Of a stretch of DNA of 64,000 nt, positions 47,644 to 55,512 are shown piece after piece (position 1 is the stretch's first letter; every line of letters starts with the position of its first letter). Both the position numbers and the translations under genes were made by a program. The DNA lies in assembly GCA_951406725.2 (NCBI GenBank), contig OX597815.1:181474001-181538000 (forward strand). Direction: 5' to 3'. The notes below the pieces were generated by a model. The model had not been told where the DNA came from and made no database searches. It saw nothing but the letters and a program-made list of their open reading frames with translations. The DNA is from Octopus vulgaris (taxonomy: Eukaryota).

Positions 47644-48431
47644 TCAGAGAGAGAGAGAGAGAGAGAGAGAGAGAGAGAGAGCCACAGCCAGCGGGCGAAA
47701 ACGAGAGGGGAAGAGGGGATTGTACGTAAATTACCTTTGCAATTTGAAAAATAATTATAACTCAGCAGAGTCTGGACAAAGTTTTATAGGAAAACACAGA
47801 ACACATCCACCCGATTTTCATTGGCTGCCCGTAGCACATCCAGACGATACAATACAATATATTGTGGAAGATGTAACGATAATTTACGAGCTGAGTGTGT
47901 GTGTATATATATATATATATATATATATATATATATATATATATATATATATATATATATATATATATATATATATATATATATATATATATATATATAT
48001 ATATTTATATCTATATATATATATATATATATATATATATATATATATATATATATATATATATATATATATATATATACATACACACGTGTACCCATGC
48101 ATATCTACACATACACACATATATATATATATATATACACATACAAATACAGACCCATTCCCTAATTTTAATTTTATTATCTTCGTTTATTACTTTTGTT
48201 ATCTTTGGCCGCTTGGTCACAAACATCTTGGCTATGACAGCCAGTCCATTTATCTGTTTATGTATATGTAGGTACGTAGAGTTATCTATGTGTGTATTTA
48301 TATGTACATGTGTAAGTATGTATATATATGTATATATATATATATGTAGGTCCCGGGTTGATTCGGGGTTAACCACAGTAAATAAGGTACTCAATACATA
48401 GCAGAGTAAAATTAATTTATTATATAGAAGG

Positions 48432-48482
48432 AGCTTCTACAGGACTAGAACTGTTTCATTCAAGAGAAATCTTCAGGAAGCT
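48432..48482 (-). ncRNA. Type I hammerhead ribozyme motif (family H1, GUA site)
   Basis: AGCUUC-CUGAAGA-uUUCucuuGAAu-GAAA-CAG-uucuaguc-CUG-UA-GAAGCU: stem I 6 bp, stem III 4 bp, full core. Confidence 0.8.
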
Positions 48483-50522
48483 AGTTAACAAGAATTGTAT
48501 TGGCATTTATACATTTAGGCAGGTTTAAAGGGGTGTTGGTGGGGGACTTTTTGGAGGTAGGCATAGCGCAAAATATCATACTTGGTGGAGTGGTCAAGGA
48601 GTCAGTGTTAAATTAGATAGAAGAATAAATAAAAAATAAAAAATAAAAATATATATATATATATATATATATATATATATATAAAAAAAGGGGGATAGAG
48701 TTTTAGGTAAATAAGGAGATTCTCACTTATACCTATGCACATATGTATACATATATACACACGCATACAAACATATACATATACATACACACATACATAC
48801 ACACACATATATATATATACATATATATACACTTACACATACATATACATATCTACACATACACATATATGTATACATACACACACTCACATGCATACAC
48901 GTATACACACATGTATATATACACACACACGACAACACATACATATACACACAGAAAAATATATATACACATACACACACATACTCACATACACGCATAC
49001 ACACACAAATCCACACACACACATGCACACCCAGCACACTAGTCCCTATATACACATATATACACATACACACATATATATATATATATATATACATACA
49101 CACACATACATATACATACACACACATATATATATAGATATATAGATATATATATATATACATATATATATATATACATACACACGTGTACCCATGCATA
49201 TCTACACATACACACACATATATATATATATATACACATACAAATACAGACCCATTCCCTAATTTTAATTTTATTATCTTCGTTTATTACTTTTGTTATC
49301 TTTGGCCGCTTGGTCACAAACATCTTGGCTATGACAGCCAGTCCATTTATCTGTCTACTGGAAAACAAGCACTCATTCACTCACGCACACTCTTTAGCAC
49401 GTACACTCACTCATTCGTACACTCATACACATACACGCACGCACGCGTTATATTCATACATACATACATCTACATACATTCACGTATATACACATACGTA
49501 CGCGTACCTACAGATTCATGTCTACACTCTTAGAAGGCTAGTCTATACATATACACCAATAAATATAAATACACACACATACACGTACACCTACATACAA
49601 ATACATACATGTATATATATATATATATATATATATATACATATATATATATACATATTCACACATATATACACATATATACATACACACACACATACAT
49701 ACACATATATACACATATACACACATATACACATATATACACACATACACATACATACATGTACACACATACACATACATACGTATACATACATACATAC
49801 ATCCATACATCCATACATACATACATTTATACACATACACACACCCACATACATACATATATATACGCGCATATATATATCCATATATATATATATATAT
49901 ATATACATATACATATATACATATATACATATATATTCATACACACACATACACATACATACATACATATACAAATATACGCACACACATACATACATAC
50001 TCATATACTCATACACACACATACACATGTACATGCGTCCCCTTACACGCACACACACACGCGCGCGTCCATATATACACATAAGTACACCCATGCGTAA
50101 GAGTATACATATATCTATGCTTACACATACACACACACACACACGCGCCTCCTTATATTCATACTTACATGCATACTCAAAAAATAAGTAAATAGTAAAA
50201 TATATATACGCGCAGTTATTCATACATGCATACTCAAAAAATAAATAATAAATAAAAAATATTAAGTATATGTACGTGCAGTTACCTATTATATAGACGG
50301 ATACATACATATAAACTTACACACATAGATATATATATATATATATATATATACATATACATATATATATATATATATATACATATATATACATACATAC
50401 ATACACATATATATACACATACACACATACATACATATATATATATATACACACACACACACACATACACATATATATATATATATATATATATATATAT
50501 ATATAATTTATTATATAGAAGG

Positions 50523-50631
50523 AGCCTCCACAGGACTAGAACTGTTTCATTCAAGAGAAATCTTCAGGAAATCTTCAGTGAGCTTCCTGAAGATTTCTCT
50601 TGAATGAAACAGTTCCAGTCCTGCAGAAGCT
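50523..50631. ncRNA. Divergent pair of H1 hammerhead variants (50523-50570 minus, GUG site; 50581-50631 plus, GCA site)
   Basis: Same motif with altered cleavage triplets; probably inactive. Confidence 0.7.
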
Positions 50632-52825: not shown

Positions 52826-52934
52826 AGCTTCTGCAGGACTGGAACTGTTTCATTCAAGAGAAATCTTCAGGAAGCTCACTGAAGATTTCCTGAAGATTTC
52901 TCTTGAATGAAACAGTTCTAGTCCTGTGGAGGCT
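52826..52934. ncRNA. Mirror pair of H1 hammerhead variants (52826-52876 minus; 52887-52934 plus)
   Basis: Reverse complement of 50523-50631. Confidence 0.7.
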
Positions 52935-55008
52935 CCTTCTATATAATAAATTAATATATATATATATATATATATATATATATATATATATATATATATA
53001 TATATATATATATGTGTGTGTGTGTGTGTGTGTGTATATATATATATATATATATATGTATGTATGTGTGTATGTGTATATATATGTGTATGTATGTATG
53101 TATATATATGTATATATATATATATATATATATGTATATGTATATATATATATATATATATATATATCTATGTGTGTAAGTTTATATGTATGTATCCGTC
53201 TATATAATAGGTAACTGCACGTACATATACTTAATATTTTTTATTTATTATTTATTTTTTGAGTATGCATGTATGAATAACTGCGCGTATATATATTTTA
53301 CTATTTACTTATTTTTTGAGTATGCATGTAAGTATGAATATAAGGAGGCGCGTGTGTGTGTGTGTATGTGTAAGCATAGATATATGTATACTCTTACGCA
53401 TGGGTGTACTTATGTGTATATATGGACGCGCGCGTGTGTGTGTGCGTGTAAGGGGACGCATGTACATGTGTATGTGTGTGCATGAGTATATGAGTATGTA
53501 TGTATGTGTGTGCGTATATTTGTATATGTATGTATGTATGTGTATGTGTGTGTATGAATATATATGTATATATGTATATATGTATATGTATATATATATA
53601 TATATATATATATGGATATATATATGCGCGTATATATATGTATGTATGTGGGTGTGTGTATGTGTATAAATGTATGTATGTATGGATGTATGGATGTATG
53701 TATGTATGTATACGTATGTATGTGTATGTGTGTACATGTATGTATGTGTATGTGTGTATATATGTGTATATGTGTGTATATGTGTATATATGTGTATGTA
53801 TGTGTGTGTGTATGTATATATGTGTATATATGTGTGAATATGTATATATATATATGTATATATATATATATATATATATATATATATACATGTATGTATT
53901 TGTATGTAGGTGTACGTGTATGTGTGTGTATTTATATTTATTGGTGTATATGTATAGACTAGCCTTCTAAGAGTGTAGACATGAATCTGTAGGTACGCGT
54001 ACGTATGTGTATATACGTGAATGTATGTAGATGTATGTATGTATGAATATAACGCGTGCGTGCGTGTATGTGTATGAGTGTACGAATGAGTGAGTGTACG
54101 TGCTAAAGAGTGTGCGTGAGTGAATGAGTGCTTGTTTTCCAGTAGACAGATAAATGGACTGGCTGTCATAGCCAAGATGTTTGTGACCAAGCGGCCAAAG
54201 ATAACAAAAGTAATAAACGAAGATAATAAAATTAAAATTAGGGAATGGGTCTGTATTTGTATGTGTATATATATATATATATTGTGTGTATGTGTAGATA
54301 TGCATGGGTACACGTGTGTATGTATATATATATATATGTATATATATATATATATATATCTATATATATATGTGTGTGTATGTATATGTATGTGTGTGTA
54401 TGTATATATATATATATATATATGTGTGTATGTGTATATATGTGTATATAGGGACTAGTGTGCTGGGTGTGCATGTGTGTGTGTGGATTTGTGTGTGTAT
54501 GCGTGTATGTGAGTATGTGTGTGTATGTGTATATATATTTTTCTGTGTGTATATGTATGTGTTGTCGTGTGTGTGTATATATACATGTGTGTATACGTGT
54601 ATGCATGTGAGTGTGTGTATGTATACATATATGTGTATGTGTAGATATGTATATGTATGTGTAAGTGTATATATATGTATATATATATATGTGTGTGTAT
54701 GTATGTGTGTATGTATATGTATATGTTTGTATGCGTGTGTATATATGTATACATATGTGCATAGGTATAAGTGAGAATCTCCTTATTTACCTAAAACTCT
54801 ATCCCCCTTTTTATATATATATATATATATATATATATATATATTTATTTTTTATTTTTTATTTATTCTTCTATCTAATTTAACACTGACTCCTTGACCA
54901 CTCCACCAAGTATGATATTTTGCGCTATGACTACCCCCAAAAAGTCCCCCACCAACACCCCTTTAAACCTGCCTAAATGTATAAATGCCAATACAATTCT
55001 TGTTAACT

Positions 55009-55059
55009 AGCTTCCTGAAGATTTCTCTTGAATGAAACAGTTCTAGTCCTGTAGAAGCT
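55009..55059 (+). ncRNA. Type I hammerhead ribozyme motif (family H1, GUA site)
   Basis: AGCTTC CTGAAGA TTTCTCTTGAAT GAAA CAGTTCTAGTCCTG TA GAAGCT; predicted cleavage after 55053. Confidence 0.8.
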
Positions 55060-55512
55060 CCTTCTATATAATAAATATATATATATATATATATATATAG
55101 GGTAAATGTTTTTCAATTTTCTCCTGGTTTACGGAATTAATGTTATTTTGCGGTTAAAGCTTTTGGCTGTTATTTCTAGTGGGTGAATGGCTTATTATGG
55201 CCGTTCCTTGATTGTGATGTTAAACTTAAAAATGGTTATGACTATTTAATTTTTTCCCACTAGGCCGCTGGTGGCAAAAGAATTCTACAAAATTTTTTTT
55301 GCCACCCTATATTGATTAATATATATATATATATATAAGTTCAGTAAAAATTAGATTCAGTTGAATATGGTACTTAAGTTAAAGGCACCAGAATTTGGTA
55401 TGGTATTATCCATATAATTCAAAATGGGGTGATTATAATCAAAATAAGCAACAAGGGAAATGGAATAACTATAAAAATGAATCGTTTCAATTTAACTAAA
55501 TTCTATATTTAT

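What the first reader, a model, noticed from the sequence alone, without database searches (positions are those of the whole stretch)
48415..55076. ~6.7-kb palindrome of a microsatellite-bodied element carrying six hammerhead ribozyme motifs
Seen: two ~3.3-kb arms mirrored about ~51730 with essentially no spacer. Each arm has an outer intact type I hammerhead (48432-48482 minus, 55009-55059 plus) and an inner divergent pair of variants (50523-50631, 52826-52934). Same-strand hammerheads flank a ~2.1-kb unit. The body is almost all complex (TA/CA/TACA)n with a few unique islands and no ORF. Established: hammerhead-bearing terminal repeats in partial-tandem and inverted arrangement characterise Penelope-like elements and retrozymes. 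Inference: a non-autonomous ribozyme retroelement whose cargo is microsatellite, able to spread complex microsatellites and to make long dsRNA. Caveat: it could be a foldback read or assembly artefact, although the arms differ in tract lengths and by a few substitutions (48554-48562 versus 54929-54937).
Basis: partly seen in the sequence, partly recalled or inferred. Interest (0 to 1): 0.85.

Follow-up and report, generated by a model that had tools for sequence, protein, structure and literature searches.

The report
Penelope retroelement with microsatellite tail, RNA-edited
The mirror-image stretch is two cut-short copies of the microsatellite-filled tail of a protein-coding Penelope-like jumping gene joined head to head, and a small hairpin nested inside it carries five A-to-G changes that likely record RNA editing of the transcript that was copied into the genome.

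Summary
The palindrome and six hammerhead motifs are real. The 'non-autonomous' reading is wrong. Longer copies continue upstream into a 713-aa RT + GIY-YIG ORF with Hydra-clade motifs. The unit is 5.1-5.9 kb with a 2.8-3.6 kb microsatellite 3' UTR, twice the size of published Hydra elements. The window holds two 5'-truncated copies head to head, the family's normal layout (66 of 100 listed ends). The inner hammerhead pair is a separate 215-bp insertion, one of 1,980 such doublets. These stop at the ribozyme's first base, 29 nt below a TATA box, which suggests run-off cDNAs from the RNA 5' end. Here the doublet carries five A>G changes on the element's sense strand, shared by both arms and unique in the genome. 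An ADAR-edited sense transcript is the likely template. Cleavage, start site and editing are untested. This scan earlier noted head-to-head Hydra pairs and the one-tail rule on other DNA.

The parts
51731..55075 (+). Right arm: 5'-truncated copy (3' UTR and 3' end, no tail) of a Hydra-clade Penelope-like element
   Evidence: Matches the UTR of ORF-bearing copy L042 at 94.7% over 2,129 columns plus further blocks; anchors collinear with other loci
48416..51730 (-). Left arm: second 5'-truncated copy, head to head with the first
55009..55058 (+). Terminal type I hammerhead: stem I 55010-55014 with 55054-55058, core 55015-55021, GAAA 55034-55037, predicted cut after 55053; 55009 is the inferred first base of the RNA
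   Evidence: same layout as published Hydra hammerheads
48433..48482 (-). Terminal hammerhead of the left arm, identical to the right one
54980..54985 (+). TATAAA, 29 nt upstream of the hammerhead's first base; putative promoter of the pseudo-LTR (mirror at 48506-48511)
   Evidence: function inferred
48345..48415 (-). 70-nt tail, present at one end only; in full units it is the leader between hammerhead and ORF
52739..52954 (.). Nested mini-insertion in a (TA)n tract of the UTR: tail-bearing end (minus) joined head to head to a tail-less end (plus); folds as one long hairpin; A>G at 52816, 52833, 52841, 52928, 52931
50503..50718 (.). Mirror copy of the nested doublet with the same five changes (50526, 50529, 50616, 50624, 50641)
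51714..51756 (.). Centre: self-complementary (TA)n tract of the UTR at which both arms end
48255..48344 (+). Templated extension 1: copy of 52649-52738, continuing from the tail as at the nested doublet
48076..48257 (-). Templated extension 2: copy of about 54146-54330, joined by a 3-nt microhomology
47903..48075 (.). Left (TA)n target tract
55076..55099 (.). Right (TA)n target tract; no target duplication can be read

Best explanation
The locus is a head-to-head pair of 5'-truncated copies of an autonomous Hydra-clade Penelope-like retrotransposon with a 3-kb microsatellite 3' UTR, likely copied from one ADAR-edited sense transcript of a parent copy that already held a small hairpin insertion. 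SHOWN by sequence: the full unit is hammerhead, 70-nt tail/leader, 713-aa RT + GIY-YIG ORF, 2.8-3.6 kb UTR, promoter-like segment, hammerhead; it inserts into (TA)n, including the (TA)n tracts of its own UTR. INFERRED: (1) transcription starts at the ribozyme's first base, 29 nt below TATAAA; (2) the enzyme nicks (TA)n and primes reverse transcription inside the RNA at two sites, the 3' end and the tail end, as shown in vitro for another Penelope-like element; (3) priming at the 5' copy of the repeat runs off the RNA end after 67 or about 137 nt, and the two short cDNAs join head to head, giving about 2,000 hairpin doublets; (4) priming at the 3' copy gives long cDNAs that stop in the UTR or ORF and join the same way, giving kilobase palindromes; (5) a doublet landed in the UTR of a parent copy, its hairpin was edited in the parent's RNA, and reverse transcription fixed five inosines as G; (6) both arms here derive from that template, by fold-back at the central (TA)n or by two primings, with further template switches making the left extension. 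Ribozyme cleavage is probably not what sets the copy ends.
For: ORF and unit; Hydra motifs and 38-43% identity to 31 aligned relatives: against the definition in PMC8557442 section 11. Family size: 7,769 exact 3' ends; 2,478 ends that include the TATA segment. Head-to-head norm: among the first 100 listed TATA-bearing ends, 33 adjacent minus/plus pairs within 12 kb, 5 same-strand pairs, no tail-to-tail pair; spacing 250-9,577 bp, window 6,461. Doublets: 1,980 against a control count of 1. In 50 fetched doublets the longer arm starts at +1 or -1 in 29, further inside in 20 and at -3 in 1; exactly one tail in 46, none found in 4, two in 0. Only 69 doublets end in the 3' half of the ribozyme, with no pile-up at the predicted cut among the 50 listed. 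Nesting: L164 has an unedited doublet in a UTR (TA)n tract that the neighbouring tandem unit lacks. Editing: 5 of 5 arm differences are A>G on the sense strand, 5 of 45 stem adenosines. In 49 solo doublets, 5 of 28 differences are A>G or T>C, never more than one per strand (rough Poisson 3e-9). No A>G among 14 differences at 945 island sites outside the hairpin. Each double-change haplotype occurs only in this window's two arms in 2.8 Gb. One contig end in run X11, guessed to be RNA, shows 9 of 11 A read as G just upstream of the ribozyme (compared by eye).
Against: No parent copy with the same nested junction was found: only this window's three places among the best 40 of 628 candidates. No raw reads were available, so the centre, the RNA start and editing at this locus were not seen directly (searches are contigs only). 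The X11 contig is a single record of depth about 3 from a run coded as another organism. The A>G test was framed after seeing the pattern. No tree was built, and Pfam has no significant hit on the ORF. TATA enrichment upstream of related hammerheads is modest: 10 of 46 at -50..-30 against 2-3 in three other windows. The only Penelope promoter I read about that was mapped experimentally is internal and TATA-less (PMC2377424, passages). The hammerhead fold is not the predicted minimum-energy fold (-6.7 against -9.0 kcal/mol; z -0.83). 12 of 14 near-full ORF copies are frameshifted.
Confidence: 0.8

Rival explanations
1. Same element, but the palindrome arose after insertion by a DNA-level inverted duplication of a single copy, and the five changes arose in DNA (hairpin mutagenesis, or deamination of a DNA:RNA hybrid) rather than in a retrotransposed RNA.
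For: Both arms end at the same (TA)n tract, which is uncommon among the mapped palindromes. The left extension needs template switches. No parent with the nested junction was found.
Against: The mirror ends exactly at the element's 3' end and takes no flank with it. One-tail head-to-head pairs are the family's normal product. Solo doublets, and a nested doublet that stayed in place, show no same-strand A>G runs.
Confidence: 0.12
2. A non-autonomous, retrozyme-like element with a 2.1-kb microsatellite monomer between two hammerheads, moved by an unrelated enzyme.
For: No ORF in the window. Most ORF-bearing copies are frameshifted and may move in trans. A Neptune-type ORF lies next to the body at L013.
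Against: The body continues upstream into the family's own ORF in L042, L046, L048, L049 and the loci. Other copies lack the inner hammerheads. The Neptune ORF at L013 is a nested insertion with different ends: the body resumes after it.
Confidence: 0.04
3. A fold-back read or assembly artefact.
For: Near-perfect mirror with no spacer; no read spanning the centre could be examined.
Against: The flanks are not mirrored; one end has a tail and templated extension; the right arm has private changes at 54930 and 53481, the left at 48555, and a tract near 51300/52130 differs. The family and doublet-type joints also occur in contigs of three other runs.
Confidence: 0.04

Closest known systems
Hydra clade of Penelope-like elements (Craig et al. 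2021, PMC8557442; seen: outline, passages, sections 6, 11, 15, supplement file 1 part 2 and the Hydra-1_Obim passages)
   Same: Single RT + C-terminal GIY-YIG ORF; RWK-type, DKT, CxCX5C, CxxC and CxH motifs; type I hammerhead with an extra U on each side of helix II; (TA)n insertion; partial tandems, inverted 5'-truncated partner, tail at one end.
   Different: Listed Hydra families are 1.1-3.0 kb; this one is 5.1-5.9 kb because of a 2.8-3.6 kb microsatellite 3' UTR. ORF-end to hammerhead is 90-1,086 nt (median about 170, 42 matches) in related metagenome loci. Tail is 70 nt rather than 30-40. Hydra-1_Obim (2,507 bp) is a different family by protein and ribozyme sequence (by eye).
Adineta vaga Penelope elements (Arkhipova et al. 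2013, PMC3846280; passages)
   Same: Head-to-head inverted repeats with palindromic junctions; putative TATA box in the pseudo-LTR; Pen1 has a 0.9-1.5 kb captured spacer before the 3' repeat.
   Different: There the spacer is copy-specific; here the long UTR is shared by the family. That paper proposes self-priming on an antisense template and leaves the question open; the edit polarity here points to a sense template.
PAc Poseidon element of Anolis (PMC11167929; passages and section 3 part 2)
   Same: Internal priming at two sites that define the tail, on both target strands; ribozyme cleavage not needed for insertion in vitro.
   Different: Other clade; in vitro data. The parts I read do not describe mass run-off doublets or an RNA start at the ribozyme's first base.
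Animal non-LTR retrozymes (bioRxiv 10.64898/2026.07.22.740005, part 1 of 5; PMC4209133, parts 1-2 of 4)
   Same: Type I hammerhead with short helix III and a self-complementary loop; opposite-strand hammerhead pairs 100-700 bp apart were noted in Schistosoma.
   Different: Retrozymes are non-coding tandem monomers; this family codes for its own enzyme and the doublets are inverted, not tandem.
SSR-carrying Penelope copies in penaeid shrimp (PMC7878876; passages)
   Same: Microsatellites inside young Penelope copies move with the element.
   Different: The passages give no clade, UTR anatomy or ribozyme.

Membership tests
Hydra-clade PLE | Single ORF with RT and C-terminal GIY-YIG-type endonuclease | tested here: met
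   713-aa ORF in L162 and L163 with YRDD and VY..YIG motifs; 38-43% identity over the whole length to 31 aligned relatives. No significant Pfam hit.
Hydra-clade PLE | RWK motif and DKG changed to DKT | tested here: met
   RWR and DKT in the matching columns
Hydra-clade PLE | CxCX5C linker; CxxC before the conserved E and CxH after the conserved N | tested here: met
   All three read in the translations
Hydra-clade PLE | Canonical hammerhead in the pseudo-LTR | tested here: met
   Descriptor match about 170 nt upstream of the ATG and at the 3' end; no Rfam hit
Hydra-clade PLE | Insertion into (TA)n | tested here: met
   Both window flanks and the printed 3' flanks of other copies
Hydra-clade PLE | Generally under 3 kb (descriptive in the paper, not diagnostic) | tested here: not met
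   5,104-5,554 bp in 8 copies and about 5.9 kb in L042
Hydra-clade PLE | Groups with Hydra elements in an RT tree | not tested
   Reference sequences were seen only in a paper supplement; no tree built
EN+ PLEs in general | Partial tandems, inverted 5'-truncated partner, tail at one end | tested here: met
Non-LTR retrozyme | Non-coding family | tested here: not met
   The family has its own ORF
Non-LTR retrozyme | Tandem monomers, each with a hammerhead | tested here: not met
   The inner hammerheads are a nested insertion absent from other copies
Non-LTR retrozyme | Circular RNA | not testable with these tools
   Only assembled contigs of runs were offered
Type I hammerhead ribozyme | Conserved core with covarying stems | tested here: met
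   Within the family, common variants fall at N7, loop II and loop III (185 rows, overlapping loci not merged). Across Hydra-like loci, 49 of 58 distinct cores have stem I of 4 bp or more against 4.6 (max 11) in 2,000 shuffles; related families inflate this.
Type I hammerhead ribozyme | Self-cleavage | not testable with these tools
   Needs an in vitro assay; monomer fold is not the minimum; helix III/loop can self-pair between two molecules at -12.8 kcal/mol

The most novel reading that the evidence does not exclude
This family writes its own mechanism into the genome. About half of its 3' ends sit in strong-stop-like run-off hairpins that mark a transcription start at the ribozyme's first base. 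When such a hairpin lands in the element's own microsatellite UTR and is carried again, ADAR edits are frozen into DNA. This locus would then be a fossil showing in vivo that a sense RNA is the template for head-to-head Penelope insertions, and that germ-line A-to-I editing is heritable through retrotransposition.
Probability: 0.55. Interest if true: 0.7.

Novelty: new variant of a known kind. Interest (0 to 1): 0.5.

Why it matters
How Penelope-like elements make head-to-head insertions, and from which RNA strand, is listed as open in PMC3846280 and PMC8557442. This family offers about 2,000 minimal insertions with a sharp 5' edge, and one locus with a strand-specific editing mark. That makes the RNA start, the template strand and fold-back versus two-priming directly testable. 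It also shows a retroelement whose UTR is both its cargo and its own target. The share of genome microsatellite it explains is small: roughly 2,500 long ends of about 1.4 kb, some 3-4 Mb or 0.1% (my estimate, exact matches only).

Tried and rejected
Rfam at gathering and E-value settings: no hammerhead; only microRNA-model matches to the hairpins and repeats. Neptune-type ORF at L013 as the partner enzyme: rejected, it is inserted inside a (TA)n tract of the UTR and has other ends. Pile-up of copy ends at the predicted ribozyme cut: not seen (69 short doublets against 1,980 at the 5' edge). Five changes as a subfamily allele: rejected; the T>C variants that looked common came from searching with the changed sequence. 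A cap-derived extra G: 14 of 18 arms starting at +1 are preceded by G, but the other arm can supply it in most, so suggestive only. Whether the shared frameshift is real or an assembly slip: one search lists no indel there, inconclusive. Sequencing runs: no RNA holder listed on record and no raw reads, so the centre, expression and cleavage remain unseen. Earlier notes by sequence: nothing. In one search, 1 of 50 doublets (L302, arm too short to align) was dropped. In one search the 458-nt UTR value for L164 came from its nested doublet and was left out of the range. Paper searches for a Hydra element with a microsatellite UTR, for run-off doublets, and for ADAR edits fixed in retrotransposon copies showed no such report; most hits were seen as listings only, the library lacks most subscription papers, and the preprint's supplements were not seen. 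I recall, without a call, reports of A>G-hypermutated retroviral DNA, so the principle is probably not new.
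Full report
Observation. The window holds one inverted repeat, 48415-55076, 96.4% identical over 6,744 columns, centred on a (TA)n tract near 51730. A descriptor scan and the sequence show six hammerhead-like motifs at the stated places. 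The outer two are complete, with a predicted cut after 55053; the inner four are altered. Rfam found none. The arms are 67% purine-pyrimidine alternating against 5% elsewhere in the window. The insertion also extends left to about 47903 through a tail and two templated pieces.

The family. The host is an unnamed animal genome of 2.8 Gb. The terminal 214 bases gave 1,003 candidates, the best 40 at 99-100%. An exact 22-mer of the 3' end occurs 7,769 times, and a 29-mer of the TATA segment 2,478 times; both controls were 0. Other copies carry the same microsatellite body upstream, cut at variable points. In L042 two units lie in tandem, and the gap between tail and body is an ORF. Of 14 copies that cover it from residue 1 to 493 or beyond, 2 are open for 713 aa (L162, L163) and 12 share a one-base deletion near codon 494. 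Units measure 5,104-5,554 bp in 8 copies and about 5.9 kb in L042. The 3' UTR is 2,847-3,636 nt in 8 of 9 measurements (the ninth is explained). So the 'cargo' is the 3' UTR of an autonomous element. Contigs of three other runs hold the family with far more depth at the ribozyme end than at the ORF start (not a copy number).

Classification. The protein has YRDD, RWR, DKT, a CxCX5C linker, CxxC and CxH around the endonuclease E and N, and 38-43% identity to 31 aligned relatives (1,396 hits). These are the marks given for the Hydra clade in PMC8557442 section 11. Published Hydra families are 1.1-3.0 kb. In 77 related metagenome loci, 53 had a hammerhead, and ORF-end to hammerhead was 90-1,086 nt in 42 matches; short-read contigs would miss long microsatellite UTRs, so this comparison is biased. 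Hydra-1_Obim is another family. No tree was built. A Neptune-type ORF beside one copy looked like a partner but is a nested insertion.

The palindrome. Head-to-head pairs with a tail at one end are described for Penelope-like elements (PMC8557442 section 6; PMC3846280). Here, 66 of the first 100 listed TATA-bearing ends lie in minus/plus pairs 250-9,577 bp apart, and none in tail-to-tail pairs; the window's spacing is 6,461. What is unusual is that both arms stop at the same (TA)n tract; most mapped pairs are asymmetric. A self-complementary (TA)n allows either fold-back of one cDNA or annealing of two. I cannot tell these apart. Fold-back followed by template switches explains the left extension most simply (inference). 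An artefact is unlikely, because the flanks are not mirrored, one end has a tail, and each arm has private changes.

The inner hammerheads. Other copies run through this point with plain (TA)n. The inner pair is a 215-bp insertion: a tail-bearing end joined to a tail-less end. The genome has 1,980 such doublets (control 1), which is about half of all 3' ends. In the first 50 listed, the longer arm starts at +1 or -1 of the ribozyme in 29, further inside in 20, and at -3 in 1, although the pattern allowed about 10 nt more; 46 have exactly one tail, 4 none that I found, 0 two. TATAAA lies 29 nt upstream of +1. PMC11167929 showed in vitro that another such enzyme primes inside the RNA at two sites on both target strands, and does not need ribozyme cleavage. 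I infer that the RNA begins at the ribozyme's first base and that the doublets are run-off cDNAs. Against this: TATA enrichment in relatives is modest (10 of 46 against 2-3), and the Drosophila Penelope promoter is internal. Only 69 doublets end nearer the predicted cut.

The editing mark. The two arms of the nested doublet differ at five sites. All five are A>G on the element's sense strand, inside a predicted hairpin of -128 kcal/mol, and both large arms share them. Four have U and one has A on the 5' side and three have G on the 3' side, which fits the ADAR preference as I recall it. Controls: 49 solo doublets have 28 differences, 5 of them A>G or T>C, never two on one strand (one doublet dropped). 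None of 14 differences at 945 island sites outside the hairpin is A>G. Both double-change haplotypes occur only in this window. The G alleles at 52833 and 52841 are about 0.5% or less of family depth in three DNA-like runs. A doublet that landed in the UTR of one tandem unit and stayed there is unedited. One contig end in a run guessed to be RNA has 9 of 11 A read as G just upstream of the ribozyme; it is a single low-depth record from a differently coded organism. The parent copy was not found. The best reading is that a parent carrying the hairpin was transcribed, edited and reverse transcribed. The edits may date from an earlier cycle, but the template strand would still be sense. PMC3846280 favoured an antisense template and left the matter open.

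The ribozyme. It matches the published Hydra layout. Across relatives, stem I pairs far above chance (49 of 58 against 4.6). The monomer fold is 2.3 kcal/mol above a rival fold that hides the cut site, and the helix III loop can pair between two molecules, as proposed for dimer-type hammerheads that cleave weakly in vitro (PMC4209133). Activity is untested.

Novelty. The element class, the inverted layout, captured spacers before the 3' repeat and microsatellites riding in Penelope copies are all in print. Earlier notes of this scan also describe head-to-head Hydra pairs and the one-tail rule on other DNA. I did not find in print a Hydra element with a 3-kb microsatellite UTR, mass run-off doublets ending at the ribozyme's first base, or an editing mark fixed in a Penelope-like insertion (mostly listings). 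Verdict: new variant of a known kind, interest 0.5.

Noticed in passing
L164-L174, L042; C run near codon 494 of the ORF: 12 of 14 near-full copies share one single-base deletion that cuts the endonuclease off the RT frame. Either an endonuclease-less subfamily spreading in trans, a slippery-site frameshift, or a systematic homopolymer error.
   Followed up: partly
L051-L080, e.g. G000:C1:27841626-27851394: A very young Neptune-type Penelope-like family: 775-aa ORF, 102 scored copies identical over the 410 aa tested, 4.27-kb tandem unit, (TA)n target, hammerhead-like motif with CCGAAGA in the core; it inserts into the UTR of the Hydra family.
   Followed up: partly
L164 (G000:C1:68808500-68818000): Three-unit tandem in which one unit has an unedited doublet in its UTR; a natural substrate for testing editing of the parent RNA.
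   Followed up: partly
run X11 laid on window 52735-52950: One contig end with 9 of 11 A read as G over the promoter segment: possible hyper-edited read-through RNA of this family.
   Followed up: no
loop III of the hammerhead, family-wide: A common variant extends the loop palindrome from 4 to 6 nt (43 of 185 rows), which would strengthen dimer pairing.
   Followed up: no
L114 (G000:C18:49340856 region): A doublet whose two short ends enclose an unrelated GC-rich inverted repeat of about 130 bp, possibly a captured cellular RNA.
   Followed up: no
L045:4650-5900: A copy whose UTR is interrupted by about 1.1 kb of the end of another repeat, in a (TA)n tract.
   Followed up: no
window 2843-3922 (+): 359-aa open frame that looks like the C-terminal part of a non-LTR retrotransposon with a zinc knuckle and restriction-like endonuclease (label recalled).
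   Followed up: no
window 14268-14764, 21459-21958, 26180-26596, 33337-33715, 36742-37260, 42413-42913: A dispersed repeat of about 500 bp, six or more copies at 73-90% identity.
   Followed up: no
L086:3300-3415 (about 3.3 kb right of the window): Another tail plus ribozyme end of the same family.
   Followed up: no
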